DNA of 64,000 nt, from positions 34,739 through 98,738 of the IMG/VR virus record IMGVR_UViG_3300027714_000008; one strand, 5' to 3'. The notes beneath the pieces were generated by a model. It did no database searches. It was not told the DNA's origin and saw nothing but the letters and a program-made list of their open reading frames with translations. Shown piece after piece: positions 16,391 through 33,279 of the stretch. The DNA comes from a virus. A program made the position numbers and the translations under genes. Positions within the stretch are counted from its first letter, which is position 1. Every line of letters starts with the position of its first letter.

Positions 16391-19300
16391 TTAGTTTAAT
16401 AGGTTGCCAGCGGCATTATATACATTAATTCTATAATGAGAAGCCGCTTGTCCGTCTAAAGTACCAGCATTAACACCACTTGTGCCGTTGACATCAACTG
16501 TTCTAAGGGCAGTTAGTATCTGTGCGGCTGTCTGATCGGCTGTAGCACTTGATTCAATGCCGTCTAGTTTAGTACCATCGGCGGCAACGTCACGACCATC
16601 AACTGTTCCCGATGCGGCAAGGTTGACAACAGTTAACGTACCTGAGCTAGAATTAAAGGTAAGATTAGAACCACTCTTTGGCGGCAATTCGCCTGTCGCA
16701 CCAGTTGTAAATAATGGAAAACAAGTCGTATCACTTGATTCATCTGCTACTGTAACAGCAGTAGCAACAGCTGCTAAAGCAACATCAATATTAGCCGTAC
16801 CATTGAAAGATGTACCACCGATAGTTCTTGCAGTTGCTAATGCAGTTGCAGTTGCCGATAAATCTACTGCAATATTAGCACTACCATTAAATGATGTTCC
16901 ACCAATAGTCCTTGCAGTTGTTAAAGTGGCGGCTGAACCAGATGTGTTTTGATTACCAGTTGCATTAACACCAGCAAGGTTTATATTCGCTGATCCATTA
17001 AATGATACACCACCAATAGTCCTTGCAGTTGCTAATGTAGTTGCGGTATTCGCTAAACCCACTGCAATATTAGCACTACCATTAAATGATGTACCGCCAA
17101 TTGTTCTTGCAGTTGTTAGCGTAGCGGCTGAACCAGATGTGTTTTGATTACCAGTTGCATTAACACCAGCAAGATTTATATTAGCACCACCATTAAACGA
17201 TACGCCACCAATAGTTCTTGCAGTTGCCAATGTAGTTGCAGTTGCGGCATTACCAGTGACTTCACCAGTAAAATTAGTTGCTGTTATTTTACCTGTACTT
17301 GGATTGTAAGTAAGCCCTGTGTCATGTTTTATCGCCGTAACTGCGCCACTTGTTGCCGCGTCAAACTTAATTGTAAAGTTTGTGTTAGTTGATTCGTCTG
17401 CTGTTGTTACAGCACCAGCAGCTGCCCATGATAGTGTTTTGTCACCACTTGTTACTAAGGCTTGTCCAGCAGAACCATCTGCATTTGGCAATGTCCATAT
17501 AACGTTAGCGGATGGAGAAACTGGTTGACCAAATCCTACATAGTTACTTGCGTTACTGTCAAGGAACCTTTGTTCTGTTACTGCTGACACAAGTGATGTT
17601 AATACGCCTGAGCTAGGGTTATATGTTAAGCCAGTATCCGTCTCAATACCCTGTGTCCCTGTTGCACCATCTACGAATGTAGGAAATACTGTTTCATTGG
17701 CTGTATTGTTAGCAGTTGCCGTAATTGCAGTTCCTATTGCTGCAGTGCCAGATGTGTTTTGATTACCAGCAGCATTAACACCAGCAAGGTTTATATTCGC
17801 TGATCCATTAAAGGATACGCCACCGATTGTTCTTGGAGTAGCTAAGATGGTTGCAGTTGCCGCATTACCAGTTAATTCACCTGTAAGTGCGCCCTCAAAT
17901 GTACCAGCTTTAACAATACCCAACGTGACTGAACTATCAGCCATGTTTATAGTACCTGAAACATCAGAGTCGTAAGCGTTTAAGAATGTCCACTTAGTCT
18001 CACTCACATCAAAGAATAGACCCACGTGAGTGTGGCCTATACCTGAGCTACCAGTGTTTCTGTTTGTAAATATACCAGTATCAACATTGATAGGAGATGC
18101 TGAACCTAGCCATGCGTTATTTAATGTGTGACCAGTTACTGCACCAAATTCTACACTAATACCATTTGCTAATGTGTGCGCACTATCGTTAATTCTAATA
18201 TTTTCACCTAGGACAGTAGAAAATGCAGAGTCATAAGAAAACTTGAATGAGTCACCAGCCGAGTCTGCACTATCAATTGCAAGATAGAAAGCTCTGTTGA
18301 CAATATCTGTAAAGTGACCTTTAAGAACCGCATCATCAAGACCTGAACCTGTTACCAATGCAGTGTTTGCATCACCTATTGTATCACCTTGGTTAAGATT
18401 ATTAAATGCGCCACCAATATTGATATTCTGTGTGGATGCGTTTACTTGAGTACCTAAAACTGTTAAGTTATTACCAACAACCAAATTAGTGCCTATGTGA
18501 GCATCACCAATAGTTCTAAAAGTTTGAGTCGTATCATGGCTTAACTCGACCAGAATTTGTCCAGTGCTTGCATGACTTGTTAAAACACGACCAACTGTAA
18601 TTGGAAAGTTAGGGAATGAATTTTCTGTACTAGACAATGCACCAGCTGATGCTCCAAGGAATACAGCGGCATTGGCAGTCAAAGAAGACGTGTCGATGTT
18701 ATTTACTAGACCTGAGTTTGTTACGTACCCAAATGTGCCATTCTCAATATCATGGGTTGCAAGACCAGAAACTTCGTAGTGATCCGCGTTTGATCCGTTT
18801 GCAAGTCCGATTGTAGGTGTAGTACCTTGCACACCAACATAATAGACTGGTTTACCATCAAGGATTGTTGCACCAGATCCGTTATAAACTCTAGTAACTT
18901 GCTCTTGACCAACTTGTAAAGTCATAGCAGCTTCGTCGTTGTAGACTGCTAAAGCACCGAATGCTGAGTCGTAAAATACTCGACCTTCTGCATGTGCAGG
19001 GATAATACCAGAATAATCTAAGAAGCCTGGTGCAATTGAAGTGGCAGTGACAACATCGAATGTTACGTCGTCTGTTGTTGCAACTGCTTGACCAATAGCA
19101 ATGTCGTTGGCATTTACTGTGACACCAGTACCAGCACCAATGTTTAATGTGCGTGTAGCTGCAATAGTACCACCGCCTGTCAAACCTGCACCAGCAGTAA
19201 TTGTTACGCCGGTGTGATCAATATGTTCGTTTGCAACAAATCCACTTAGATTGTCGTGTACGATTTGTCCGTCATTAGTTGTGATGTTATCTGCATTTGC

Positions 19301-20269
19301 AGTTAAACCAGTACCAGCAATAACATTAAGTGTACGATTGGCGGCGATAGTACCACCGCCTGTTAAACCAGTGCCCGCAATAACAGAAACACCTGAGTGA
19401 TCGATATGCTCATTTGCAACAAATCCGCTTAGACTGTCATGTACAATGTCACCATCAGTTGTAGTAATCACACCAGTGCTATCATTGTATGTAATACCAG
19501 TACCACCACTTATAGCGTTCTTAGCGTCACTGTCTGCACGAGCAGTCGTGTAATAAAGGTTACTACCTTCTGTAAGATTAGCTGTAGTGAAAGGACCTAG
19601 TGTAGCAGTTGCAGTAAATGTACCACCATCTGCTGTACCAATTGTTAAGATGCCGTTACTACTATCGTATCCAAATGATGCAACACCTGCAACTGGAAAT
19701 ACTCCAGCAGAGTCTATTAGTCCTTGAGCGTTTACTGTAAATTTTGGAACTAAAGAACCAGAACCATAAGTACCAGCAGTCACACCTGTGTTTGTTATTG
19801 ATATTTTACCAGCGGCAGAGTCGTATGTAATTCCTGTGGAAGCTACTAGCTTGGCTCTTACTTCTGCTACACTAGGACCTGTATATGTTAATACGCCTGT
19901 TGCAGGGACATATGCAAAAGAACCATCTCCACCAGCGTCTGTTAGACTGATTGCGTTCTTTGCATCAGAATCAGCTCTTGCTGTAGTGTAGTATAGATTA
20001 TTACCTTCGCCTAAGTTGGTAGTGCTTTTTGTAGCTATTCGTACATCAAAGGCAGAGTCAACTCTTGATGTTGTATGATACAAATTGCTACTGCCTTCAG
20101 TAATCTCATCTGTATTATCCTTTGATGCTATTTGTGTAGCAACGTATGCTTGCGTAGCAACTGGAAGGTTTGCCTGAGTTATAATGCCACTTACGTTTAC
20201 TGAACTATCAAACGTTGAAGGTCCTTTGACTGTAATGCCATTCTTAACTATAAAATTCTTGTCTGCCAT
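16391..20269 (-). CDS. Long tail or neck fibre protein with internal repeats (1292 aa)
   Basis: Gly/Thr/Ala-rich, with three families of internal repeat. Confidence 0.85.
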   Translation of the reverse strand: MADKNFIVKNGITVKGPSTFDSSVNVSGIITQANLPVATQAYVATQIASKDNTDEITEGSSNLYHTTSRVDSAFDVRIATKSTTNLGEGNNLYYTTARADSDAKNAISLTDAGGDGSFAYVPATGVLTYTGPSVAEVRAKLVASTGITYDSAAGKISITNTGVTAGTYGSGSLVPKFTVNAQGLIDSAGVFPVAGVASFGYDSSNGILTIGTADGGTFTATATLGPFTTANLTEGSNLYYTTARADSDAKNAISGGTGITYNDSTGVITTTDGDIVHDSLSGFVANEHIDHSGVSVIAGTGLTGGGTIAANRTLNVIAGTGLTANADNITTNDGQIVHDNLSGFVANEHIDHTGVTITAGAGLTGGGTIAATRTLNIGAGTGVTVNANDIAIGQAVATTDDVTFDVVTATSIAPGFLDYSGIIPAHAEGRVFYDSAFGALAVYNDEAAMTLQVGQEQVTRVYNGSGATILDGKPVYYVGVQGTTPTIGLANGSNADHYEVSGLATHDIENGTFGYVTNSGLVNNIDTSSLTANAAVFLGASAGALSSTENSFPNFPITVGRVLTSHASTGQILVELSHDTTQTFRTIGDAHIGTNLVVGNNLTVLGTQVNASTQNINIGGAFNNLNQGDTIGDANTALVTGSGLDDAVLKGHFTDIVNRAFYLAIDSADSAGDSFKFSYDSAFSTVLGENIRINDSAHTLANGISVEFGAVTGHTLNNAWLGSASPINVDTGIFTNRNTGSSGIGHTHVGLFFDVSETKWTFLNAYDSDVSGTINMADSSVTLGIVKAGTFEGALTGELTGNAATATILATPRTIGGVSFNGSANINLAGVNAAGNQNTSGTAAIGTAITATANNTANETVFPTFVDGATGTQGIETDTGLTYNPSSGVLTSLVSAVTEQRFLDSNASNYVGFGQPVSPSANVIWTLPNADGSAGQALVTSGDKTLSWAAAGAVTTADESTNTNFTIKFDAATSGAVTAIKHDTGLTYNPSTGKITATNFTGEVTGNAATATTLATARTIGGVSFNGGANINLAGVNATGNQNTSGSAATLTTARTIGGTSFNGSANIAVGLANTATTLATARTIGGVSFNGSANINLAGVNATGNQNTSGSAATLTTARTIGGTSFNGSANIAVDLSATATALATARTIGGTSFNGTANIDVALAAVATAVTVADESSDTTCFPLFTTGATGELPPKSGSNLTFNSSSGTLTVVNLAASGTVDGRDVAADGTKLDGIESSATADQTAAQILTALRTVDVNGTSGVNAGTLDGQAASHYRINVYNAAGNLLN
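16790..17250 (-). repeat. 195-bp (65-aa) tandem repeat in the fibre gene
   Basis: GCGGCTGAACCAGATGTGTTTTGATTACCAG occurs at 16929 and 17124; ARTIGGxSFNGxANI occurs 5 times, with a further copy near 17750-17860. Confidence 0.9.
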
Positions 20270-22863: not shown

Positions 22864-22871
22864 TATTTATA
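22864..22871 (-). promoter_or_regulatory. Late promoter TATAAATA
   Basis: Exact motif overlapping the stop of the glycosyltransferase gene. Confidence 0.7.
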
Positions 22872-23649
22872 ACAAATATTTCCCCATACCAGAATAAAAA
22901 ATAGATTCGTGGCAAGAATTAAATACACAAATAGCTTTACTTTCATCATAAAAAACTAATACTTTACCGATCACAGCTCCACCAGCTGCTAATGTAGACT
23001 CTGTGTCTAATCTAATAAAGTAAGATTTATCTGGATCAATGTGAGGTGTAAGTTTACATCTAAAATACCAATCATCTTCACTTAAACTACAAAAATTAGC
23101 ACTAGGAATTTCATAGCTAAAAAATCTATCAATGCCATGATATAGATTAGTATAAAGTTTTATTGATTTTACAAACTTATTATATAAGTCTTGATTCTCA
23201 TTGTTGTACCAAACCATAATTGAAGAATTGTAATAAGGTTTGGTATGTTTCGAAAACTCCTGAAAATAATCATTAGAATAATCATTTAAACTTTCCTCAA
23301 AAACTTGATCTATTAGAGTTAGTTTATTATGTGACGCTTCATCAAATAGATGATCGATATTATTTTGTATCACTACATCTAAATCTAAATAAAGATTGAC
23401 ACCATCATAATCATTTTGTTTAAACATGGTAAGTTTCCACCACCAAGCTTTTAAATCGAGTCGCGTGTCTAATGAAACAATGCTTATTCTTTCGTCAACA
23501 CCCTCAGAATCTTCTGTATAACAATAAAAGTTAAATGGCAAAGTGATGTTTCTCTCTGCCATTCTATAGAGTCTATTTACATGTTCAGCAGTGAACTTGT
23601 CACCCCATTTAACACATACTACGTTGTGTTCCAAATCTTTTGTACCCAT
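22867..23649 (-). CDS. Glycosyltransferase (GT-A fold)
   Basis: VVCVKWGDKF, WWWKL, LYLDLDVVI (DxD) and YNSSIM motifs. Confidence 0.8.
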   Translation of the reverse strand: MGTKDLEHNVVCVKWGDKFTAEHVNRLYRMAERNITLPFNFYCYTEDSEGVDERISIVSLDTRLDLKAWWWKLTMFKQNDYDGVNLYLDLDVVIQNNIDHLFDEASHNKLTLIDQVFEESLNDYSNDYFQEFSKHTKPYYNSSIMVWYNNENQDLYNKFVKSIKLYTNLYHGIDRFFSYEIPSANFCSLSEDDWYFRCKLTPHIDPDKSYFIRLDTESTLAAGGAVIGKVLVFYDESKAICVFNSCHESIFYSGMGKYLL

Positions 23650-24284
23650 TCTGCTTTGTCCTCAATCATATTGTCGTCATATATGAAATGTACTAGCTTG
23701 ATTTGATCGCCAAACTTCTCTTGAGTTATCAAAGGCTTGTTATAGTAATCGTAGTATTTATTTATTATATCCTTGTTGTTTCTGGACGAACCTTCTGTAT
23801 GAACACCTAACCATTGGCCTGGGAGTTCCTCTATAAAGTAATTAGAATCAGTAACAAAGTTTTGTTCGCCCATTCCCATAATACCAATTAATTTTCCATA
23901 GTGATTAATCCAGAAATCAGGATTAGAATAAAATTTGTCGTAAACGGCAAGTTGATTATAACCAGGATTAATTTTATAAAACCCACCATTATATTTACAA
24001 CCACTGTTTTTCCACCATCTTGGAAACGCTCCAATATGATTTTCTACAATGTCATAGTTGAATAGTTCATCTAGGCTTCCATTAACAATAATATCTATGT
24101 CCATAACAATGCAAGGATCTTGGCGTTTAAAAAAAGATATTTTATCCCAATGACCATTAGGGCAATCAGTCTTTACAATAAAGTTAAAATCGCCAGAATA
24201 ATTCCTAGCTATGCCATTTTGTAAATTGTCAATATATTTTGAGCTATACTTTTCACCGAAATGTGTTACGCATATATCAATCAT
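23619..24284 (-). CDS. Glycosyltransferase (GT-A fold)
   Basis: FGEKYS, HWDKI, MDIDII (DxD), NGGF, GEQNF and LVHF motifs. Confidence 0.75.
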   Translation of the reverse strand: MIDICVTHFGEKYSSKYIDNLQNGIARNYSGDFNFIVKTDCPNGHWDKISFFKRQDPCIVMDIDIIVNGSLDELFNYDIVENHIGAFPRWWKNSGCKYNGGFYKINPGYNQLAVYDKFYSNPDFWINHYGKLIGIMGMGEQNFVTDSNYFIEELPGQWLGVHTEGSSRNNKDIINKYYDYYNKPLITQEKFGDQIKLVHFIYDDNMIEDKAEWVQKIWNTT

Positions 24285-24985
24285 TCAATGCCTATTTCTT
24301 CTAGTACGTCTTCCCAAAAGCCTTTACTTGTTTGATCAAATACATAAGACACTGTAAATCTCCAACAATCAGTAGAAGCCATATGATACACCAAGTTTTC
24401 AGGACCATCTTCATATGATCCAAAGTAAAAGGCTTTAGCTTGCCAACCCACTTTATCTTTTACTAAAACTTCTTCACCAGTTTTAGGATCTACATGTTTC
24501 CAATACCCATCACCAGTTTCAGACCAAGTTAAAACTATATTGTAACTTGGTGCGTTTGCATTATTATGCCAACCAATGTAGCCACCAGGAGGGTACACAG
24601 CCGCCAAAGCATTAGATCTAGTGCTTAAAATAGAAGACAACTTTTTATTAAGCCTTATGTAGTTGTCATTAAAGTATTTCTCTTTGATTTTATCATCGTC
24701 TGTCCTTGGAGTTCTATCCCAATAATCAGATGTTTTTACTTGCTTAAATGTATACCCATAAAGACATTCAGGATAACCATCGTGGTCTTTATAATCAGCC
24801 ATGATTTTCTTTTTGTATGCGTCACTTATATTTTCTTCACGTTTGTTTTTTTCGTTGTTTGCATTTATAAGATAAGCATGTTTTTTAAAAGATTCTAAAT
24901 CGTTATACCAAAGGTCTTTAAACTCATTGAGTGTATCAAGAACTTCGTTATTAACAATGTTAACACTTGTCATAGTCTTTGTCAT
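24281..24985 (-). CDS. 2OG-Fe(II) oxygenase-like protein
   Basis: YPPGGYIGWHNN...YH...RFTVS jelly-roll pattern. Confidence 0.6.
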   Translation of the reverse strand: MTKTMTSVNIVNNEVLDTLNEFKDLWYNDLESFKKHAYLINANNEKNKREENISDAYKKKIMADYKDHDGYPECLYGYTFKQVKTSDYWDRTPRTDDDKIKEKYFNDNYIRLNKKLSSILSTRSNALAAVYPPGGYIGWHNNANAPSYNIVLTWSETGDGYWKHVDPKTGEEVLVKDKVGWQAKAFYFGSYEDGPENLVYHMASTDCWRFTVSYVFDQTSKGFWEDVLEEIGIE

Positions 24986-24988
24986 TCT

Positions 24989-25732
24989 TCAATACCGATC
25001 ATATTTTTCTATTAAACCGCTGTAGTGTTGGATTATAACACCTTTCTCTGGCTTTGTAAACCCTTTAATTTCATACGTCATATACCAATTCCATCTCTCA
25101 CCATCTTCAAAGGAACCTACTTTAAGATCTTTATAATAAGGGTGTTCCTCTGTTAAAAACCATAAAGTGAATTGATCGAATTGACGTAATACTTCTGGAT
25201 GCAAATCAAAATCTTGTTTACCATCTTTATATGCAGGCCACCAATTTCCAGCAAATTGATTGCGGTAATATTCGTTCCACATTTTCATAAAACTTTGAAC
25301 TATAGGTTTTCTAATATCATAAAGAACTATGCCACCACAAAGTTTCATTTCTCCACCACGCCACTTACGAATTGCAAACAAAGAATCTTTGTCCACAGGC
25401 AAATCAACAAAGGCTATGTCGTTTCCTTTAAGTTGATCAAATGCAAACTCAATATCTTCATGTATGATTTCTACGTCAGCGTCAACATACATTGTAATAT
25501 CAAAAGGAGTCTTATCTAAAGCCCATAGCTTTTCTCTTACATGGTCACCGCAATATATTAAGTGGTCCGCAATAGATTCGCGCCCATCACAGAAAGCTTC
25601 CTCTGTAACAAGACAAACTTTAGCGTCTGGATAGTTATCTCTAATAGAATTTATTGCGTTTATAGCTAAATCAAAAAACCTAGGTTTAGTAGATGCTACA
25701 AGTAAAAACCCTTTAGTCGGTTCCGTTTTCAT
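24989..25732 (-). CDS. Glycosyltransferase (nucleotide-diphospho-sugar transferase)
   Basis: AINSIR, TPFDITMYVDAD (DxD), DQFTLW, RWN and IQHY motifs. Confidence 0.75.
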   Translation of the reverse strand: MKTEPTKGFLLVASTKPRFFDLAINAINSIRDNYPDAKVCLVTEEAFCDGRESIADHLIYCGDHVREKLWALDKTPFDITMYVDADVEIIHEDIEFAFDQLKGNDIAFVDLPVDKDSLFAIRKWRGGEMKLCGGIVLYDIRKPIVQSFMKMWNEYYRNQFAGNWWPAYKDGKQDFDLHPEVLRQFDQFTLWFLTEEHPYYKDLKVGSFEDGERWNWYMTYEIKGFTKPEKGVIIQHYSGLIEKYDRY

Positions 25733-26183
25733 TATTTAATACTTCCATCACAATCATCATACAATATACATTAACTTCAACGACGTTTTGAGCTTTTCTT
25801 AATTTAGATTTTAAAACTCTATTAGTAGAATTTTTAATAGCGTCTATCTCGAAAGCAGAAATCTTAGCTTCAAATAGTTGTTGAAGGTCTTTTGCTCTTG
25901 CTCTTTCTAATCTTGCTTGTTCTGCTTCAGTGCGTTCAACTAATTTCTTTTCGTTACGTTCGTTAGTGTTGGCAGTGATTGCTTCAAAAGTTATAGCATC
26001 AAGAACTTCTTTAAAGTCTGGATTTTCATTTCCATCAACATCAAATTTATTTACAGTAAGTTGTTGAGTAGTAGAATTTTCATTCTCATCGACAATCGTT
26101 AAAATTGTTGTTATTCTATTTTGATCATAACTTTCCCAAAAGGACTTTTTATCCCAAGTGCGATTATTCATAGTATTCTCCAT
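25713..26183 (-). CDS. Hypothetical protein, possible fibre chaperone
   Basis: 156-aa ORF with a C-terminal coiled coil, overlapping the GT gene. Confidence 0.7.
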   Translation of the reverse strand: MENTMNNRTWDKKSFWESYDQNRITTILTIVDENENSTTQQLTVNKFDVDGNENPDFKEVLDAITFEAITANTNERNEKKLVERTEAEQARLERARAKDLQQLFEAKISAFEIDAIKNSTNRVLKSKLRKAQNVVEVNVYCMMIVMEVLNNENGTD

Positions 26184-26219: not shown

Positions 26220-27425
26220 TTAAGCTTTACGTACATACAAAGTATATGTTTCAATTGTACCAACGCCAGAACCAATAGTTTCGCCTGCATAGTTACCAGT
26301 ATAAGCACCAGTGTAGTTGCCAACGTAGTTACCAGTATAAGCACCAGTGTAGTTGCCAACATAGTTACCAGTATAAGCACCAGTGTAGTTACCAACATAG
26401 TTACCAGTAAACGTTGCCGCACCTAAGAAGTTTGCCACATACTGGAATTGTTGACCACCGCCTTCATAATAAATAACTGTACGCACTCTTTGAAAGTTTG
26501 CACCATTTGGATTTACATAACCTGCTGAGTAAGTACCAGCATAAGTACCAGAATAATCTGCTGAGTAAGTAGCTGAGTAAGTACCAGAATAATCTGCTGA
26601 GTAGGTACCAGCATAAGTCCCAGAATAATCTGCTGAGTAGGTTACATCTGAAGTTGTTTTCTTTGTATCTGTTGCTGTACCTTGTGCTTGCCAAGTTCCA
26701 GTTGCAGATGGTACACCATTAGCAGATGATCTTAATTGATATGCACCAACATTATTTGCCGCCGCCATTGTGTACTTTCGTAACCAAGTACCGAATGTAT
26801 GTTTAATTTCTGCATCGTCCATTTCTTGTAGACCATCGAAGCTTGAATCGTCATTTTTTATCTTGACAGGACGAACTGCTGTAGGAGCCGTCATTGTTTG
26901 ACGTTGCCAAATACTATGTGTGATTGTGCTACCATTTGATGCTTGTGTGTCAGTAAAGACGTCTGCCAAATGTTCGTCGTAATCTGAACCAGGAGTAGAC
27001 GAGGCTAACTTGTAAGTGCCTGGATAATTGCCTGCGAATACCACAGCAGACAAACGAGCTAAAAGCGTATTCATATTTGCATCTGTGAATTCATCTGTTG
27101 CGGTGTTATCATCATCCCACGTTATAGGTCTGTGAAAATCGCCACCATTAGTTGCTACAGAACCAGACTTTTGAAATAGAACTGTATTAGTTGTACCTGT
27201 ACTGATACCAGAACCTGGATGTGTGCCAATTGCTTGGTTGAAGAATGTGTTTGAGTACGTTCCTATATTAGTAGAACTTGAATTAGATGTTGTTAAAGCG
27301 GCTACAGCAGTTTGAGCTTGTGCGGCAAGATGTAATCCAGCTTGATACGAAAGATATGCTTCCTCAGTCGTGGTCATCTCTTTCAAGTTACCATTGGTAT
27401 CACTTAATTTAATTGGGACACTCAT
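26220..27425 (-). CDS. Virion protein with two Tyr-periodic repeat arms
   Basis: 401 aa containing (YSAD/YSGT/YAGT)n and (YTGN/YVGN/YTGA)n arrays. Confidence 0.85.
   Translation of the reverse strand: MSVPIKLSDTNGNLKEMTTTEEAYLSYQAGLHLAAQAQTAVAALTTSNSSSTNIGTYSNTFFNQAIGTHPGSGISTGTTNTVLFQKSGSVATNGGDFHRPITWDDDNTATDEFTDANMNTLLARLSAVVFAGNYPGTYKLASSTPGSDYDEHLADVFTDTQASNGSTITHSIWQRQTMTAPTAVRPVKIKNDDSSFDGLQEMDDAEIKHTFGTWLRKYTMAAANNVGAYQLRSSANGVPSATGTWQAQGTATDTKKTTSDVTYSADYSGTYAGTYSADYSGTYSATYSADYSGTYAGTYSAGYVNPNGANFQRVRTVIYYEGGGQQFQYVANFLGAATFTGNYVGNYTGAYTGNYVGNYTGAYTGNYVGNYTGAYTGNYAGETIGSGVGTIETYTLYVRKA
26280..26639 (-). repeat. Two 12/36-bp-period tandem arrays (26280-26411 and 26508-26639)
   Basis: Repeated TAGTTACCAGTATAAGCACCAGTG and CCAGAATAATCTGCTGAGTA units. 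Confidence 0.9.
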
Positions 27426-27435
27426 CTTTTATTCC

Positions 27436-27756
27436 TTATGTGTTCAGTAAAGTACCAGCTGCGTTATACACATTTGGTAATCGTCTATTCAACTCATTAA
27501 CAGAGCTTACCAGCGATGTTTTGTTTGTAGTAGTCAAAGATGCCAATGAAAGAACTCCACCACTATCACCATAAAAATTAGTCCTTAATGATAATACATC
27601 ACTATCAACATCTGAGTGGACTTTATTAACAGCAACAACAAGTGATGTTGCAGAGTCCGTCAAAGATGTAAGATCACCTTGCAATATTCCAAGTTGATTT
27701 GTTTTATCTCTCCAACTAGCAATTGTAGTTGAAAGATCAACGTTGATTAATGACAT
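27436..27756 (-). CDS. Small fibre/adaptor protein
   Basis: TTIASWRDKTN N-terminus, KTSLVSSVNEL, and a C-terminus shared with the long fibre. Confidence 0.75.
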   Translation of the reverse strand: MSLINVDLSTTIASWRDKTNQLGILQGDLTSLTDSATSLVVAVNKVHSDVDSDVLSLRTNFYGDSGGVLSLASLTTTNKTSLVSSVNELNRRLPNVYNAAGTLLNT

Positions 27757-27757
27757 G

Positions 27758-27973
27758 TCATAACTTCTCTATAATCTGGCTTAACATCATTTTAATATCT
27801 TTTACATCACTTTTAAGCTGGTTAATTTCTTCCCTTTCAGCCGCCTTAGTCTCTCTTTGGTTTACCCTGAGGTTCTTAATGCGATTGATCTCAGTGCTAT
27901 TTATATTAATTATAGCACCTGTATTTTTATCTCTTGCTAATCCGCTATGACCTTCTACCTTCACTAAATCCAT
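27758..27973 (-). CDS. Conserved small coiled-coil protein
   Basis: VKVEGHSGLARDKNTGAIIN...EINQLKSDVKDIKMML. Confidence 0.75.
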   Translation of the reverse strand: MDLVKVEGHSGLARDKNTGAIININSTEINRIKNLRVNQRETKAAEREEINQLKSDVKDIKMMLSQIIEKL

Positions 27974-29574
27974 TATGTGCCTAATGCAATAGTTCTTAAC
28001 GCTTTAAATCTAGGTACGTCTGTTGACGATGTTGAACGCATTACTATTTTAATTTGGTAAGTAGTAAATGGTGCAAGGTCTCCTTGATATGTTCCACCTA
28101 TGACATATTTATACTCTCTGAATACGTTATAATTTGTATCAATAGGAAGCGTATTATGATTTGAATCAGGTTCTACTTTTGATGCCTCTATCCAAGCAGT
28201 GTCTTCAATGCTTACGTCACCACCAGCATCTAACACTTTATAGAAAAGATCAAAGTCTGTACCCTGAGGTCTATTGACATCAACAAGGACTTTAATACCA
28301 GTTGCAGGTTCAGCTAATAAAACAGGTATTGATATGTGTTTAGCCAAGGTAGATCCAAAGTTTGCAACTGTCTCAGCTACATAGCTTAATGGGACGTTAA
28401 ATCCAGTTGTTGCCGCTGAATCTGGATTATCAATAATGTTGTGGACTGATATAACAGAAGCTCTTTGTAAGTCTACAGAAGGAGCCGCATATGAACTTGT
28501 TGTCACTAACTCCAAATCAATAGTATAAGAAGACCTAGTAAGGGCTGTGTCTCTAACAGCAGTCGCAATAACAGCTGGAGAATTTAAGAACGTATCCATT
28601 TTGTTTGCTGTTGCGTGTTTAGGTAAAGTCCCATAAGCAGTTTCACCACCACCAAAAGATTTAGAAGTTGTTAGACCAGCTACCATGCGATGATTTGTGC
28701 CATTTGGTTGAAGTATTTCAATATTAGGCTTAAAGCTATCTATGATATATTGTTGTGTAGCAAGGATGCTATTACCACCACCGAATATAGCTGAGTCTGC
28801 CGAACTGTCCATTTCAAATTTATAGCCAGTACCATCAATGTGAGTAACAGCTCTTGATCCTAAGATACTTGCACCTAAAACACCATTGATGCTAGTAGCA
28901 GAATCTAACCCACTTGAGTCAGAAGATATATGTACGACGTCATTTACTTGAAAGCCGTGGTTAGGATGTGCAACAGTAACAGTTGCATCACTTGCCGCAA
29001 ATAGAAACGGATTACTTGTTAATGATTTTACAGGTGGCGGAGCCGCATTAAATCTTACTAATGCGTTAGTGCCTGTGAAGTTGGCTCTATATACTTTAAA
29101 AGTTAAATCACGAGTCTGATCCGCTTCAAATACTCTACCATTAGCAGACTTAAAGAATATGCCTGCGTATGGATCTGTTTGAAGTCTTTCTGTTGTTGAA
29201 CCTAGTTTGAAGTCACCTAACTTAGCAGTCCACACTTGATATGCATTACCAAGAGCATTTGATTGTATGCAAATAGCAAAGTCTTTGCCACCTTCAAGGT
29301 ATACTGGTTCTTCAAAAGTGAAAGTTGTTTCTGTAGCCGCTGTAGCAGACACAGTTATGTCACTTGCCGCTTTAAAAGAGACACTGTTTTCGATTATCTT
29401 ACTAGAATCAGGAACACCATTAACAGTAGGTCTTATACTAAGTTGAACAGGATAGTCTGCATCTGCCGCTTTAGTTGCAAAATAGATACCTATTTTAGTT
29501 ATGTATATTCCTGAAACCTGATTGACCCTAAACGTTTGGGCAATCGGTTGGATTAATTCAGAAGTAGATGACAT
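27973..29574 (-). CDS. Virion structural protein (VrlC-like C-terminal part)
   Basis: QPIAQTF, GIYITKIGIYF, FEEPVYL and FQIKIV-like/VPRFKALRTIA motifs. Confidence 0.75.
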   Translation of the reverse strand: MSSTSELIQPIAQTFRVNQVSGIYITKIGIYFATKAADADYPVQLSIRPTVNGVPDSSKIIENSVSFKAASDITVSATAATETTFTFEEPVYLEGGKDFAICIQSNALGNAYQVWTAKLGDFKLGSTTERLQTDPYAGIFFKSANGRVFEADQTRDLTFKVYRANFTGTNALVRFNAAPPPVKSLTSNPFLFAASDATVTVAHPNHGFQVNDVVHISSDSSGLDSATSINGVLGASILGSRAVTHIDGTGYKFEMDSSADSAIFGGGNSILATQQYIIDSFKPNIEILQPNGTNHRMVAGLTTSKSFGGGETAYGTLPKHATANKMDTFLNSPAVIATAVRDTALTRSSYTIDLELVTTSSYAAPSVDLQRASVISVHNIIDNPDSAATTGFNVPLSYVAETVANFGSTLAKHISIPVLLAEPATGIKVLVDVNRPQGTDFDLFYKVLDAGGDVSIEDTAWIEASKVEPDSNHNTLPIDTNYNVFREYKYVIGGTYQGDLAPFTTYQIKIVMRSTSSTDVPRFKALRTIALGT

Positions 29575-29616
29575 TTATTAGTCCTTTAAGTGTTTTTACC
29601 ATAATTTTTTAGTTTA

Positions 29617-32600
29617 TTAATCCCACTTGGTGCTGTAATGTGCTGCAGCTTTGACAGCATCATACTTATCTGTACCGCCTATCTCACCATCATCATAACT
29701 GGCCCCATTTCCAGCAAAATCACGATGGTCGTTATCGCCAGAACTAGTGTTGTTGTAACTAGGATCTTGTGTAGTTTGAACTGTTGTTTGAATAGCGTGC
29801 CTTCTAGTGTGTTTAATATCTTCTTGATAATGTTGCATAGTACCAGTTGAAACAAAGTCAGACGATGCGTATGATGTTGCGTTAACTCTATTTAGCTCAC
29901 TAATATCTATAAGCGTAAATTGTCTTGTTCCTGTTAAGAATTTAGTTGCATTCTTATTTGGCACAAAGATAATACCTTCAATTGCACCATTAGCATCTGA
30001 TAATATGGATGCAGTCTTACCGCCTAAAGTAGGTGGGAATTCTGTTTCATTGATGTACTTATCACCAGGATCAAGATAATTAGAATTAGTCGCTTGTGCC
30101 GCAAAGTATTGGAACTTTCCTGAACCTGTTTGAACAAAAGCAGAAATATCAGTTTCGTCATAGAATGGGAAGTAACGAGTATTAGGTCTCAAGCCTTGCG
30201 CTTTAAAGAATATAAATCGTTCTCTTTGGTATTGAATAGATGTTTCATAAAGTATTTCGTCTGCCATTGATGTCACGACTGTTTCACTCTTGACAATTGT
30301 ACTTGTTACAGTAGAAGTCGTTCGACCATTCTTTGAAGTCTTACTTTCAGAGTAACCGGCTTTTAATGAATCTGCTTGTACACCTGACCAGTTAAAGCCC
30401 CAATCATTCCACAAGGAAGTGTTTGCTGGGTCTAGCTTTGTTCCGCCGTCAACAATCTTAGCAGGTAAACGAGAGGTGTCGAACCATGTATCAGTAGATG
30501 GTGACATTTTAATATGCCCAATAGTCACACCTAAGTTAAATGCGTTTACTGATGTTGCACTGGATGCCTGAGTATTTGAAGCATATACAACTTCTTCATA
30601 AAGAGGGTATACTGTATCGCCTATTAAGGACACACGATCAGAAGCATCAGAGTCATAAACAAGTTCAGAACTGTTTGCAACAAATGATGGTCTTAATTCT
30701 CTATTGAATACATCAGTAGATGCACGATAATCTAATGCAGTTCTTAAACTTTGTGAGTGGTCTGTAAAGTTGTCGGCAGTTAGGCCAACTTTTAGACGAT
30801 TAACACCAGCCGAGTCAAGAACTTCTAAAGTAGCAGTTTCTAGCTCAAGCATGTTTAATGTAGTAATTTCTTCAATCTTGTCCATACGTGTTTCAAGATC
30901 AGATATATCTCTCATAGTGTAACGTCTGTTATCAACATACGTCATAGATACATCGCTATCATTCAATGTGTAAGGATTTATAGATAGTCTAGCAAGTTCC
31001 ATTGCATTATCAGGAACGGATGGGTGTATAGGAAATAATGACCTTTCACCAGCAACCGCTTCAAATGTGCCTGCTTTATTCAATACAATTCTGTAACCTT
31101 GACCAAGATAGTAAGCAATGTCTGTAGTAATAAGATCAGTGTTAGCTGGAATTTCTACAGTTACCGCACCAGTTGAAGTAAAGTCAGATGCAGTGTTAGC
31201 ACGTAAAGGTCTAAAGTCTAATACGTCTCTTAAAGAAACAGTCTCACCATTCTTTTGTCTGTATGATGGAATGTCTTCATATTCAACTTGACCAGTGTAA
31301 GAATTTACAGCAAAGAAGTCTCCGCCAGCTCCGTGTGCAAAGTGATCAAAGTTAACATAAACATCACCGCTTGGAGCAGAAAAGCCAGCACGTAATGTTA
31401 GAATGCCTTCCGAATAGAAGTTATCTCTTTGTCCATTGTCAAGTACATAATAGTCTGTAATGACATTACCAGCAGATGTAGCATCTCGTACTTCATTAAT
31501 TCTAAATATGTCACCACGCTCTAGCTGAACTGTGTCGTCACTTTCAGGAGAAATAGTAGCCGTTCTATTTGTTAATGCTTTAGTTTTTACTGTGGCAGCA
31601 CCTTTGTTGACATAGGCTAACAATGAAACAGCAGAAGATTTTTGAAGCGTTCCTAATGTAACACCTGTAGTTCCGTTACCACCAGCAGTCACAGTAATCG
31701 CACTTTCTACACCAGAAGAATCTGTTGATAGTAACCAATTTGTAGAGTTGGCAAAAGTCTCGCCTGTTGCAGACAATGAAAGAGCCAATGTAGCGTTAGC
31801 CGCTGCAGTACCAGTGAAACGTCTTTGTGTCGTCAATGATATGTCAGTTATGGCAGAAGGTCTGATACCTGATAAAGGGAACAATAAGTTATTATTAGAA
31901 GTGTCTTTTATTACAGCAACACTATTTTCAAGAACAAGATCAGCATAGTTAGTAGTGCTAAGACCTATACTTCTAACAGCACTAAACTGTTTAGCCGAAG
32001 CCATTACAACATCAAAGATGTATATTCTATAATACAAACCAAATTTCTCAATAGACCTTATTCTAGCCGTACCAATAGTTGCACCACCATGAGTAACAGC
32101 CGATCTTAAATTGACATTAGCCATAGTTGTAATGTTTGGCAAGCCTAACTTAGTCAAAGATAAAATGTAATTACCATACTCTGAGGCAACAACATCATTG
32201 TTTACTGTAGTAGTTGTTCTTGGCTTGTCAATAGGAATTCGTATTGGGTTATAAGATTCGAACCTTTTACCTTTTACATAAGCAATACCAGCATTGATTG
32301 TTATATCAAGTTTAGTTGCATCAGAATCGTTGGCTTGGGTTTTTATTATGAATGGCTTAACTGTATAGTTACCAGACTCTTCGAATGTCCTTTGAGCCAA
32401 GATGTCGCCTACGACACTCAAGCTCCTATCACCAGCAGACTTAACAGCCGCCATTAATCCATTGACAATATCAAAGGATGGAATGAATGTAGTACCAGCA
32501 GAAACATTAGCTTGTAATGCCAGTGCTAATGTAATCTTATATCTGTCTGCACCAGGAGCAGTCAAGTTTGGTGTGTCTGTTGAATTGTCGTAAAGTGCAG

Positions 32601-33279
32601 TATCATCAGCCGCTTTAACAACTTGTTCTGAAACAGTAAAACCAACTACAGCCGTAGGTGTACTTGAATACTTAGAAATAACAATGCTTTGCGCATTAGA
32701 CTGAACGAAGTGACCGCTTACGAAGAATACTGATTCTTTTACCGAGAGCCTTGTACCACGCCCAACAGCTGGATTTGCAGTAGTATTAGTAGATTGTACT
32801 TGTAAGTTTGTTCCACTGACATCGCCATTGATAACTTCACCTGGTGTTAAACGAACAGGTGTGGTGGTACCAGAAATTGAATTGTTATTTACATACTCAA
32901 CAAAGATTGTTGCAGGGTCACCATCAGCCGCTGCTTTGATTTCAACAATGCGAACTTTAATAGTAGATGTTTGTCCAGTAAAAATTTCACCGATTAAAGC
33001 AGAGAACGTTGTAGGTAAAGCATATGTAGTAGTATCTAGTTTACCAAATTCAAATCTTGTATCTAATTGAATACCACCCGAATGGACAGGCGCACCTTCT
33101 TTAAATACAAAACGAGCATGTTGCTCTGCTTCTCTTTGAATAATCGTTTGAAGTTGGGTTAACTCTCTTGCTTGAAGTGCTGAACCCGAATTAAAAAGTA
33201 TTCTGTGATAATTATCGCTGTCTGCGAAATCATCTCTGTATGTCTGACTAAAGCTGGTGCTTGTAACGTTGCTTACCAT
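29617..33279 (-). CDS. Large virion protein (DUF4815/VrlC-like)
   Basis: YRDDF..NYHRILF..LQARELTQLQT, APGADRYKI, RTFEESGNY and RYTMRDI motifs. Confidence 0.8.
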   Translation of the reverse strand: MVSNVTSTSFSQTYRDDFADSDNYHRILFNSGSALQARELTQLQTIIQREAEQHARFVFKEGAPVHSGGIQLDTRFEFGKLDTTTYALPTTFSALIGEIFTGQTSTIKVRIVEIKAAADGDPATIFVEYVNNNSISGTTTPVRLTPGEVINGDVSGTNLQVQSTNTTANPAVGRGTRLSVKESVFFVSGHFVQSNAQSIVISKYSSTPTAVVGFTVSEQVVKAADDTALYDNSTDTPNLTAPGADRYKITLALALQANVSAGTTFIPSFDIVNGLMAAVKSAGDRSLSVVGDILAQRTFEESGNYTVKPFIIKTQANDSDATKLDITINAGIAYVKGKRFESYNPIRIPIDKPRTTTTVNNDVVASEYGNYILSLTKLGLPNITTMANVNLRSAVTHGGATIGTARIRSIEKFGLYYRIYIFDVVMASAKQFSAVRSIGLSTTNYADLVLENSVAVIKDTSNNNLLFPLSGIRPSAITDISLTTQRRFTGTAAANATLALSLSATGETFANSTNWLLSTDSSGVESAITVTAGGNGTTGVTLGTLQKSSAVSLLAYVNKGAATVKTKALTNRTATISPESDDTVQLERGDIFRINEVRDATSAGNVITDYYVLDNGQRDNFYSEGILTLRAGFSAPSGDVYVNFDHFAHGAGGDFFAVNSYTGQVEYEDIPSYRQKNGETVSLRDVLDFRPLRANTASDFTSTGAVTVEIPANTDLITTDIAYYLGQGYRIVLNKAGTFEAVAGERSLFPIHPSVPDNAMELARLSINPYTLNDSDVSMTYVDNRRYTMRDISDLETRMDKIEEITTLNMLELETATLEVLDSAGVNRLKVGLTADNFTDHSQSLRTALDYRASTDVFNRELRPSFVANSSELVYDSDASDRVSLIGDTVYPLYEEVVYASNTQASSATSVNAFNLGVTIGHIKMSPSTDTWFDTSRLPAKIVDGGTKLDPANTSLWNDWGFNWSGVQADSLKAGYSESKTSKNGRTTSTVTSTIVKSETVVTSMADEILYETSIQYQRERFIFFKAQGLRPNTRYFPFYDETDISAFVQTGSGKFQYFAAQATNSNYLDPGDKYINETEFPPTLGGKTASILSDANGAIEGIIFVPNKNATKFLTGTRQFTLIDISELNRVNATSYASSDFVSTGTMQHYQEDIKHTRRHAIQTTVQTTQDPSYNNTSSGDNDHRDFAGNGASYDDGEIGGTDKYDAVKAAAHYSTKWD

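What the first reader, a model, noticed from the sequence alone, without database searches (positions are those of the whole stretch)
26280..26639. Balanced Tyr-repeat arms flanking a 32-aa tip: an extendable hairpin needle
Seen: 11 tetrapeptides (YSAD YSGT YAGT ... YVNP, 132 nt), a unique 32-aa loop, then 11 tetrapeptides of different sequence (FTGN YVGN YTGA ... YAGE, 132 nt). Both arrays have a 12-aa super-period. Two different arrays of equal length and period suggest antiparallel pairing, as an out-and-back stalk with an aromatic ladder that presents a receptor-binding tip. Length would change only by coordinated expansion (inference). The gene lies directly upstream of the GT cassette and is rich in Ser/Thr/Tyr acceptors.
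Basis: partly seen in the sequence, partly recalled or inferred. Interest (0 to 1): 0.8.

Follow-up and report, generated by a model that had tools for sequence, protein, structure and literature searches.

The report
Tyrosine-zipper hairpin stalk on phage fibre
A tail-module protein of an uncultured marine T4-like phage carries a long two-armed beta-hairpin stalk zipped by facing tyrosines, with a hypervariable tip and two arms kept equal in length across a large unannotated family, so it looks like a new way of building a phage host-recognition fibre.

Summary
Gene 26220-27425 (minus strand, 401 aa) has 11 aromatic-led tetrapeptides, a 32-aa middle, then 11 different tetrapeptides; each array has a 36-nt period.

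The out-and-back hairpin reading is supported.
1. In relatives with a clear landmark, 37 of 38 proteins outside the near-clonal clade have equal arms (9 to 19 units). More distant members balance arms of up to 185 residues around inserts of up to about 1200 aa.
2. Where an arm-1 unit, counted from the base, lacks its aromatic residue, the arm-2 unit at the same distance from the base has Phe instead of Tyr in 33 of 38 cases (odds ratio 65). No other register and no parallel order shows this.
3. Two-residue bulges sit at mirrored positions.
4. Two AlphaFold models draw one long hairpin, but arm pLDDT is only 30-45.
5. The apex is hypervariable between near-identical proteins.

About 20% of contigs in the window's own near-clonal clade carry unequal arms, mostly 11/8. 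This may be assembly collapse or real slippage.

Receptor binding, oligomeric state, docking on the upstream fibre and glycosylation are all untested. The family has no Pfam, PHROG, NCBIfam or PDB match. The closest analogue in topology is the T4 gp37 needle. The scan also noted this stretch in an overlapping window of the same genome.

The parts
26220..27425 (-). Whole gene, 401 aa (P0001): base domain, two-armed stalk and return strand.
   Evidence: ORF and translation. The identical protein was seen on 24 public contigs.
26640..27425 (-). Residues 1-262: conserved beta-rich base domain, the family's hallmark.
   Evidence: AlphaFold pLDDT is mostly above 90. The domain is conserved in more than 600 clusters at 50% identity. 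Weak beta-prism/MABP-like fold matches, Z 5.5-7.9.
26508..26639 (-). Arm 1, residues 263-306: 11 units of Tyr-x-small-x, running outward from the base.
   Evidence: TRF period 36, 3.4 copies; unit counts.
26412..26507 (-). Tip, residues 307-338: conserved flanks around the hairpin apex.
   Evidence: Models give strands 311-319 and 325-333 with a turn at Glu321-Gly324. Tip length is 30-50 aa in relatives.
26442..26480 (-). Hypervariable apex, about residues 316-328.
   Evidence: P0001 versus P0002: 1 difference in 262 base-domain residues and 6 in the 32-aa tip. At least five tip types occur on base domains that are 88-99% identical.
26280..26411 (-). Arm 2, residues 339-382: 11 units of aromatic-x-Gly-x, running back to the base.
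   Evidence: TRF period 36, 96% matches. Mirrored covariation with arm 1.
26220..26279 (-). Residues 383-401 plus the stop codon: return strand, ending in the family-wide C-terminal motif (ETYTLYVR-like). It packs back onto the base domain.
   Evidence: Nearly invariant in alignments A1 and A2. pLDDT 80-96. Present even in members of 2282-3347 aa.
27436..27756 (-). Upstream 106-aa mini-fibre that ends in the tag NVYNAAGTLLN. It is a possible docking partner of the base domain (inference).
   Evidence: 10 of 11 residues identical to the C-terminus of the 1292-aa fibre. In 14 of 22 related loci with a complete homologue, the upstream gene is 100-931 aa long and ends in the same kind of tag. Weak PHROG tail-fibre matches.
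16391..20269 (-). 1292-aa tail fibre that ends in the same C-terminal tag.
   Evidence: PHROG tail-fibre families, E 1e-62; tag match.
25713..26183 (-). Downstream 156-aa protein of unknown function, a conserved neighbour.
   Evidence: Found after the family gene or genes in 38 of about 50 IMG/VR loci; 48% identical in L004.
24281..25732 (-). Conserved 247-aa and 234-aa genes that follow the 156-aa gene.
   Evidence: Present in 38 and 37 loci in the same order. No Pfam or NCBIfam hit. The nearest named language-model clusters for the 247-aa protein are nucleotide-diphospho-sugar transferases, score 0.96-0.97.

Best explanation
P0001 is a virion fibre or adhesin protein in the baseplate and tail-fibre module of a T4-like marine myophage.

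Architecture. A beta-rich base domain is built from residues 1-262 plus the last 20 or so residues. Everything in between is an insertion between two neighbouring antiparallel strands. The chain runs out as arm 1, turns at a short apex and runs back as arm 2. Each arm is a string of four-residue units (aromatic, x, small or Gly, x). One face of the ribbon therefore alternates aromatic and Gly, and the other face is polar. Units at the same distance from the base face each other, with the position-1 side chains in contact (Tyr on Tyr, or Arg on Phe). This makes a 'tyrosine zipper'. From standard beta-strand geometry, the stalk would be about 25 nm long from base to apex.

Function. The apex is the variable, probably receptor-contacting part. 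In giant relatives it is replaced by inserts of hundreds of residues. Stalk length sets how far the tip is held out, and selection keeps the two arms equal.

Status of each step. Shown: balanced arms, mirrored covariation, hypervariable apex, tail-module context. Inferred: receptor binding; oligomeric state (a trimeric six-stranded needle like gp37 is plausible); docking of the base domain on the conserved C-terminal tag of the upstream fibre proteins.
For: Context: gp5-, gp25-, gp6- and gp8-like baseplate genes lie upstream; tail fibre, neck, terminase, sheath, portal and capsid genes lie downstream.

Balanced arms: in the subfamily with the NPN landmark, 37 of 38 proteins outside the near-clonal clade have n1 = n2, with values 9, 10, 11, 12, 14, 16 and 19. 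There are at least 10 state changes on the base-domain tree. One trio with nearly identical base domains has 10/10, 11/11 and 19/19. Among 58 representatives no more than 50% identical to each other, the largest non-periodic break is central: imbalance of 0.1 or less in 24, against 5.8 expected, p 4e-10. Exact equalities include 46/46, 54/54, 113/113, 134/134 and 185/185 residues.

Mirrored covariation: arm-1 units without an aromatic residue face arm-2 Phe units in 33 of 38 cases, against 19 of 205 otherwise. Odds ratio 65, Fisher p 4e-22. Every other shift and the parallel order give odds ratios of 0.2-3.9. None of 20,000 within-protein shuffles reached the observed count.

Mirrored bulges: 7+5 units against 5+7 in the P0093 group, and three bulges with a constant i+j in P0051 and P0058.

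Models: in two AlphaFold models the strand pairs are symmetric about i+j of 640-644 (P0001) and 633-637 (P0024). The Tyr-Tyr mirror values are 642 and 635. The base strands are confident.

Apex hypervariability.

Frequency of the balanced form: the 11/11 form dominates the window's clade, 51 of 69 contigs, and the window's exact protein is on 24 contigs.
Against: Arm pLDDT is only 30-45 in both models.

In the near-clonal clade, 14 of 69 contigs carry unequal arms (11/8, 11/5, 11/14, 5/14, 5/8), in steps of 36 nt.

The binary independent-pairs sign test has too few pairs to reach significance (p 0.06-0.125).

A charge-complementarity scan did not separate registers clearly.

Some distant members have several non-periodic inserts and strongly unequal blocks.

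There is no experimental evidence that the protein is in the virion or binds a receptor. There is no significant fold or sequence match to any fibre of known structure.
Confidence: 0.75

Rival explanations
1. The stalk is as described, but the protein is a single-copy adhesin that caps the end of a trimeric fibre, as gp38 caps gp37 in T2 and S16. It would be a free-standing two-stranded Tyr-zipper ribbon, not a homotrimeric needle.
For: The gene lies directly downstream of a fibre gene with a conserved C-terminal tag, as gene 38 follows gene 37. The base domain weakly resembles a pseudo-threefold beta-prism, Z 6.4-7.9. Cross-strand aromatic pairs can stabilise isolated hairpins (general knowledge of Trp-zipper peptides).
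Against: Arms of 130 to more than 500 residues in relatives are hard to picture as an unsupported two-stranded ribbon. One face of the ribbon is aromatic/Gly, which suggests that it is buried. Stoichiometry was not testable here.
Confidence: 0.25
2. The stalk is a structural strut, whisker or spacer of the baseplate or neck, for example a length ruler or an environmental sensor like T4 fibritin. It is not a receptor-binding device, and the variable apex reflects relaxed constraint.
For: No receptor-binding domain was recognised. Function rests on context alone.
Against: Substitutions cluster in about 12 apex residues, while the remaining 390 residues are nearly identical. In relatives the apex position takes large variable inserts. 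The gene lies among fibre genes. These are the usual marks of host-recognition modules.
Confidence: 0.15
3. The arms are low-complexity Tyr/Gly repeats without a fixed pairing, either disordered or independent solenoids. On this view the equal length in the window is coincidence or shared descent.
For: Low pLDDT in the arms. Unequal alleles exist in the closest relatives. There are sub-threshold Pfam Gly-zipper hits of a compositional kind.
Against: Equal arms recur after at least 10 independent changes in length. The Arg/Phe covariation is specific to the mirrored register. Bulges are mirrored rather than in direct order. The strict period of 4 holds for up to 585 residues in C48C1.
Confidence: 0.04

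Closest known systems
T4 gp37 distal 'needle' (domains D10 and D11 of the long tail fibre)
   Same: Out-and-back topology. The D10 collar is made from the segments before and after the needle (residues 811-881 and 1010-1026). D11 (882-1009) runs to a receptor-binding tip and returns. Gly faces an aromatic residue in the core (G921 and F970). Source: PMC6957217. Both proteins belong to T4-like tail-fibre modules.
   Different: No sequence or profile similarity. There are no His-x-His iron sites, and no His at all in residues 263-382. The stalk here is a regular four-residue repeat whose length varies widely between relatives. The base-domain fold did not match the gp37 or gp12 collar. Trimer status is unknown.
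gp38-type tail-fibre adhesins of T2, T6 and S16 (Gly-rich motifs flanking hypervariable segments)
   Same: A separate gene directly downstream of a fibre gene. An N-terminal attachment part, and a Gly-rich up-and-down scaffold that presents hypervariable loops at the far end. This description of gp38 is from my own knowledge of the S16 gp38 structure and was not checked here.
   Different: No Pfam or PDB match. The period of four residues with alternating aromatic and Gly fits beta strands, not three-residue polyglycine-II helices. There is a single long hairpin rather than a sandwich of many short helices.
MABP beta-prism domain of perforin-2 (MPEG1) with its inserted hyper-extended beta-hairpin
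   Same: A beta-prism-like domain from which a very long hairpin projects, and the hairpin tip contacts the target (PMC7593815). The best fold matches of the base domain are MABP-type domains: Mp2Ba1 Z 7.9, Plu-MACPF Z 7.2, MVB12B Z 6.4, perforin-2 P2 Z 5.5.
   Different: The Z scores are in the range the tool calls common for unrelated folds. Sequence identity is 5-9%. There is no MACPF domain. The hairpin here is repeat-built and far longer.
Designed Trp-zipper hairpins and aromatic-glycine pairing in beta sheets
   Same: Cross-strand aromatic pairs on one face of an antiparallel hairpin. This matches the position 1 to position 1 covariation. The comparison rests on general knowledge.
   Different: Those are 12-16-residue peptides. 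Here the motif repeats 5 to more than 100 times, with Gly between successive aromatic residues.

Membership tests
T4 gp37 needle (D10-D11) | Base or collar domain formed by the segments flanking an out-and-back stalk. | tested here: met
   The base domain and the last 20 or so residues are both conserved and modelled confidently, and the arms lie between them. The arms pair in mirror register.
T4 gp37 needle (D10-D11) | His-x-His motifs that coordinate iron along the needle. | tested here: not met
   No His in residues 263-382.
T4 gp37 needle (D10-D11) | Sequence or fold homology to gp37 or the gp12 collar. | tested here: inconclusive
   A profile of 58 sequences finds no PDB chain at E of 1 or less. 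Foldseek against PDB and BFVD gives nothing significant. VIA-align does not list gp37.
T4 gp37 needle (D10-D11) | Homotrimer. | not testable with these tools
   Only monomer prediction was available.
gp38-type fibre-tip adhesin | Encoded directly downstream of the fibre gene whose tip it caps. | tested here: met
   A fibre-like gene with a conserved C-terminal tag precedes the family gene in the window and in 14 of 22 loci with a complete homologue. Physical capping was not shown.
gp38-type fibre-tip adhesin | Gly-rich motifs that form polyglycine-II helices, and homology to gp38. | tested here: inconclusive
   No Pfam family above cut-off and no PDB hit. A repeat period of 4 residues argues against three-residue PGII helices (inference).
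Pfam Gly-zipper (PF13441, PF13488) | Score at or above the family gathering cut-off. | tested here: not met
   18.2 bits against a cut-off of 28.9, and 16.3 against 25. The 'SlyB lipoprotein' names on some homologues appear to be compositional.
MABP / beta-prism domain | Fold match of the base domain. | tested here: inconclusive
   Z 5.5-7.9 over 112-124 residues, which is within the tool's stated background range.
Target of a diversity-generating retroelement | A reverse transcriptase gene and a template repeat matching the variable region. | tested here: inconclusive
   No RVT_1 match and no second copy of the tip DNA in the 98.7-kb record. The record is only about 59% complete.

The most novel reading that the evidence does not exclude
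This is a previously undescribed kind of fibre: a length-programmable beta-hairpin 'tyrosine zipper', probably bundled into a six-stranded trimeric needle. Both chain ends stay at the virion and the middle of the chain is the business end. Length evolves by slip-and-compensate steps in two unrelated repeat arrays. The unequal alleles seen in nature would then be real intermediates. The same scaffold carries anything from a 12-residue loop to a 1200-residue cargo, and may be modified by the conserved GT-like neighbour.
Probability: 0.3. Interest if true: 0.85.

Novelty: new variant of a known kind. Interest (0 to 1): 0.72.

Why it matters
The family is large. It has more than 600 clusters at 50% identity, mostly from marine metagenomes, and it has no annotation in Pfam, PHROGs or NCBIfam.

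It sits in the host-recognition module of abundant uncultured T4-like phages, so it is probably a main determinant of which hosts they infect.

Structurally, it offers a natural, tunable beta-hairpin rod from about 5 to more than 100 repeat units. The sequence rule is simple (aromatic, x, Gly, x) and there is a clear pairing code (Tyr-Tyr, Arg-Phe). That is of interest for protein design and for predicting fibre length from sequence.

It also gives a rare, clean case of length co-evolution between two separate repeat arrays in one gene. This is testable in the cultured phage C48C1.

Tried and rejected
The DNA of the unequal-armed relatives could not be fetched, so assembly collapse could not be told apart from real slippage.
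- IMG/VR holds no relative closer than 50% identity.
- Megablast of 14 kb against phage genomes gave no match.
- Foldseek against PDB and BFVD gave nothing significant. The PDB profile search gave nothing.
- A charge-complementarity scan across the arms was best at one antiparallel register (49 opposite against 1 same), but several other offsets and one parallel offset came close. I treat it as not discriminating.
- The best-mirror-sum scan mostly shows a fixed phase of the ladders relative to the anchors. It does not show equal length, so I did not use it as evidence.
- The binary independent-pairs test went in the same direction throughout but was underpowered.
- Pfam on six giant relatives gave no domains for their inserts.
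- A DGR origin for tip variability was rejected for lack of a reverse transcriptase or a template repeat, in an incomplete record.
- The 'tentaclin' paper concerns C-type lectin loops and is unrelated.
- Proteins of 270-300 aa that looked 'armless' are truncated fragments.
- The 156-aa neighbour is not similar to the C48C1 protein annotated as 'tail assembly chaperone'.
- The 234-aa neighbour could not be confirmed as an oxygenase.

Full report
**What is there.** The finding lies in one ORF on the minus strand, 26220-27425, 401 aa, here called P0001. Residues 263-306 are 11 tetrapeptides that each begin with Tyr. Residues 307-338 are not repeated. Residues 339-382 are 11 tetrapeptides of a different sequence, each starting with an aromatic residue and carrying Gly at position 3. 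Tandem Repeats Finder gives both arrays a 36-nt period with 3.4 copies, and scores of 230 and 197. The two arrays share no DNA similarity. The longest exact self-repeat in the window is 35 nt. The window is part of a 98.7-kb IMG/VR viral contig that CheckV rates about 59% complete, and its GC content is 37%.

**Context.** The gene sits in the late structural module of a T4-like myophage. Upstream are genes like the baseplate tube cap, the gp5 hub and lysozyme, gp25, gp6 and other wedge subunits, and a large DUF4815/phrog_358 protein split into 1220-aa and 533-aa genes. Downstream are a 1292-aa tail fibre, the gp13-, gp14- and gp15-like neck genes, large terminase, sheath, portal and major capsid genes. 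The portal protein is 63.5% identical to that of phage C48C1 and about 51% identical to those of cyanomyophages.

**The family.** P0001 has no PHROG family, no Pfam family above cut-off, no NCBIfam family and no PDB sequence relative. It nevertheless has 860 relatives in the length-limited search and 651 clusters at 50% identity, 208 of them at E 1e-30 or better. These come almost entirely from marine metagenomes and range from 362 to about 2500 aa. The only relative in the phage genome collection is a 3347-aa protein of the isolate C48C1. All complete members share the 260-aa N-terminal domain and a C-terminal motif of about 20 aa. All the length variation lies between these two.

**Do the arms co-vary?** In the subfamily with a clear landmark at the end of arm 1 (an Asn-Pro-Asn-like motif), the units can be counted exactly. 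Outside the window's near-clonal clade, 37 of 38 proteins have equal arms: 9/9, 10/10, 11/11, 12/12, 14/14, 16/16 or 19/19. On a tree built from the base domain alone, the unit number changes at least 10 times in arm 1 and 11 times in arm 2. Three proteins with nearly identical base domains carry 10/10, 11/11 and 19/19, and their extra units are diverged in sequence, so they are not assembly artefacts. The binary independent-pairs test goes the same way in every pair, but it has only 4-5 pairs (p 0.06-0.125). The stronger argument is the exact numerical equality.

In the wider family I took 58 representatives no more than 50% identical to each other. In these, the largest non-periodic break lies near the middle far more often than a random break would: imbalance of 0.1 or less in 24, against 5.8 expected, p 4e-10. 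Exact equalities include 46/46, 54/54, 113/113, 134/134 and 185/185 residues. In the giants, the 'tip' is an insert of 200 to about 1200 aa between matching arms.

**Do the arms touch each other, and in which order?** I listed the units of both arms from the base outward. Wherever arm 1 has a unit whose first residue is not aromatic (usually Arg), the arm-2 unit at the same distance from the base starts with Phe rather than Tyr. Over 25 distinct patterns this holds in 33 of 38 cases, against 19 of 205 for aromatic arm-1 units (odds ratio 65, Fisher p 4e-22). Shifting by any other number of units, or reading arm 2 in parallel order, removes the association (odds ratios 0.2-3.9). None of 20,000 within-protein shuffles reached 33; the mean was 9.9 and the maximum 19. 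The positions differ between lineages: units 3, 5, 8 and 9 of 11; units 8, 11 and 12 of 14; unit 7 of 9; units 5 and 8 of 10. The signal is therefore not one inherited pattern, although the sequences are related and the p-values are only indicative. Two-residue bulges are also mirrored: 7+5 units against 5+7 in one subfamily, and three bulges with a constant i+j in another. Together these results show antiparallel, in-register pairing with contact between the position-1 side chains. They do not say whether the pairing is within one chain or between chains of an oligomer.

**Models.** AlphaFold2 with family alignments models the base domain well, with pLDDT mostly above 90, and also the last 20 or so residues (80-96). 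The arms score only 30-45. In both models, however, the strand pairs are symmetric about one apex. For P0001 the pairs are 245-267 with 375-399, 283-299 with 341-357, and 311-319 with 325-333, giving i+j of 640-644. The value expected if the Tyr ladders face each other is 642. For P0024 the model gives 633-637 against an expected 635. The base domain has only middling fold matches, all to MABP-type beta-prism domains (Z 5.5-7.9). One of these, perforin-2, is known for an inserted, hyper-extended, target-binding hairpin (PMC7593815).

**The tip.** P0001 and P0002 differ at 1 of 262 base-domain residues, at 0 of the 19 residues that follow arm 2, and at 6 of 32 tip residues. At least five tip types occur on base domains that are 88-99% identical. 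Tip length runs from 30 to 50 aa in the subfamily, while the tip flanks stay conserved. I found no reverse transcriptase and no template repeat in the record.

**The caveat.** Within the window's near-clonal clade, unequal arms do occur. By contig count, 51 carry 11/11 (the window's exact protein alone is on 24 contigs), 3 carry 8/8 and 1 carries 14/14. Against these, 10 carry 11/8 and one each carries 11/5, 11/14, 5/14 and 5/8. All differences are multiples of three units, that is 36 nt. Most are in arm 2, which has the more perfect DNA repeats, and they recur on every tip type. This is what assembly collapse would give. It is also what frequent slippage with selection against unequal forms would give.

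**Neighbours.** The 106-aa protein just upstream ends in the same 11-residue peptide as the 1292-aa fibre, with 10 of 11 residues identical. In 14 of 22 related loci with a complete homologue, the upstream gene is 100-931 aa long and ends in the same kind of tag. In five loci the upstream gene is a second family member, so the family also occurs as tandem paralogues. Downstream, the 156-aa, 247-aa and 234-aa genes are conserved in order in 37-38 of about 50 loci. The two genes with HMM support as glycosyltransferases (221 and 260 aa) are not conserved there. The 247-aa protein is GT-A-like only by a language-model search. That the base domain docks on the tag, and that the fibre is glycosylated, are both inferences.

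**Comparison and verdict.** In topology the closest known thing is the T4 gp37 needle. There a collar is formed from the flanking segments, a stem runs out and back, Gly faces an aromatic residue in the core, and the tip binds the receptor (PMC6957217). P0001 is not a member of that family: it has no His-x-His iron sites and no detectable homology. It is also not demonstrably a gp38-type adhesin, although the gene order is similar. I found no paper describing this repeat or this family.

I rate it a new variant of a known kind, a phage fibre with an out-and-back stalk, built on a repeat code that has not been described. The functional reading remains to be tested.

Noticed in passing
window 27436-27756 and 16391-20269; loci L003-L042: The 106-aa protein and the 1292-aa fibre end in the same peptide, NVYNAAG(T/N)LLN. 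In 14 related loci the gene just upstream of the family member is 100-931 aa long and ends in the same type of tag. It looks like a conserved joint between fibre segments.
   Followed up: partly
window 24281-26183; 37-38 of about 50 IMG/VR loci: A trio of genes of 156, 247 and 234 aa always follows the Tyr-repeat gene or genes in the same order. None has a Pfam or NCBIfam match. The 247-aa protein is nearest to nucleotide-sugar transferases in the ESM Atlas. The HMM-supported GT genes at 22867-24284 are not conserved there.
   Followed up: partly
L010 3835-9946; L018 3265-11736; L023; L031: Some phages carry two family members in tandem with very different lengths, for example 849 + 1183 aa and 1020 + 1767 aa.
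   Followed up: no
L001 8989-19032 (phage C48C1, OQ984149.1): This cultured phage has a 3347-aa homologue with the same base domain and C-terminal motif. It has a stretch of 585 residues in one unbroken four-residue aromatic register.
   Followed up: partly
window 27973-33279: The 1220-aa and 533-aa genes match consecutive parts of a single 2056-position PHROG profile, phrog_358 (positions 573-1410 and 1422-1626). C48C1 has one 1661-aa gene at this place. The protein is therefore split here, with 42 nt between the two ORFs.
   Followed up: no
protein database entries P0087, P0270, P0276, P0277: Several homologues are named 'outer membrane lipoprotein SlyB' by their source. This seems to be a compositional Gly-zipper artefact, with the window protein's own Gly-zipper scores below the Pfam cut-off.
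   Followed up: partly
P0264 (MGZ4853215.1): A 52-aa fragment that clusters with P0001 is filed under a Halobacteriota MAG at NCBI. It is probably a phage contig mis-binned into that MAG.
   Followed up: no
proteins P0133, P0222, P0226, P0234, P0261, P0216, P0238: One subfamily has three or more periodic blocks separated by two non-periodic inserts, and its block lengths are strongly unequal. This may be a branched or double-hairpin layout.
   Followed up: no
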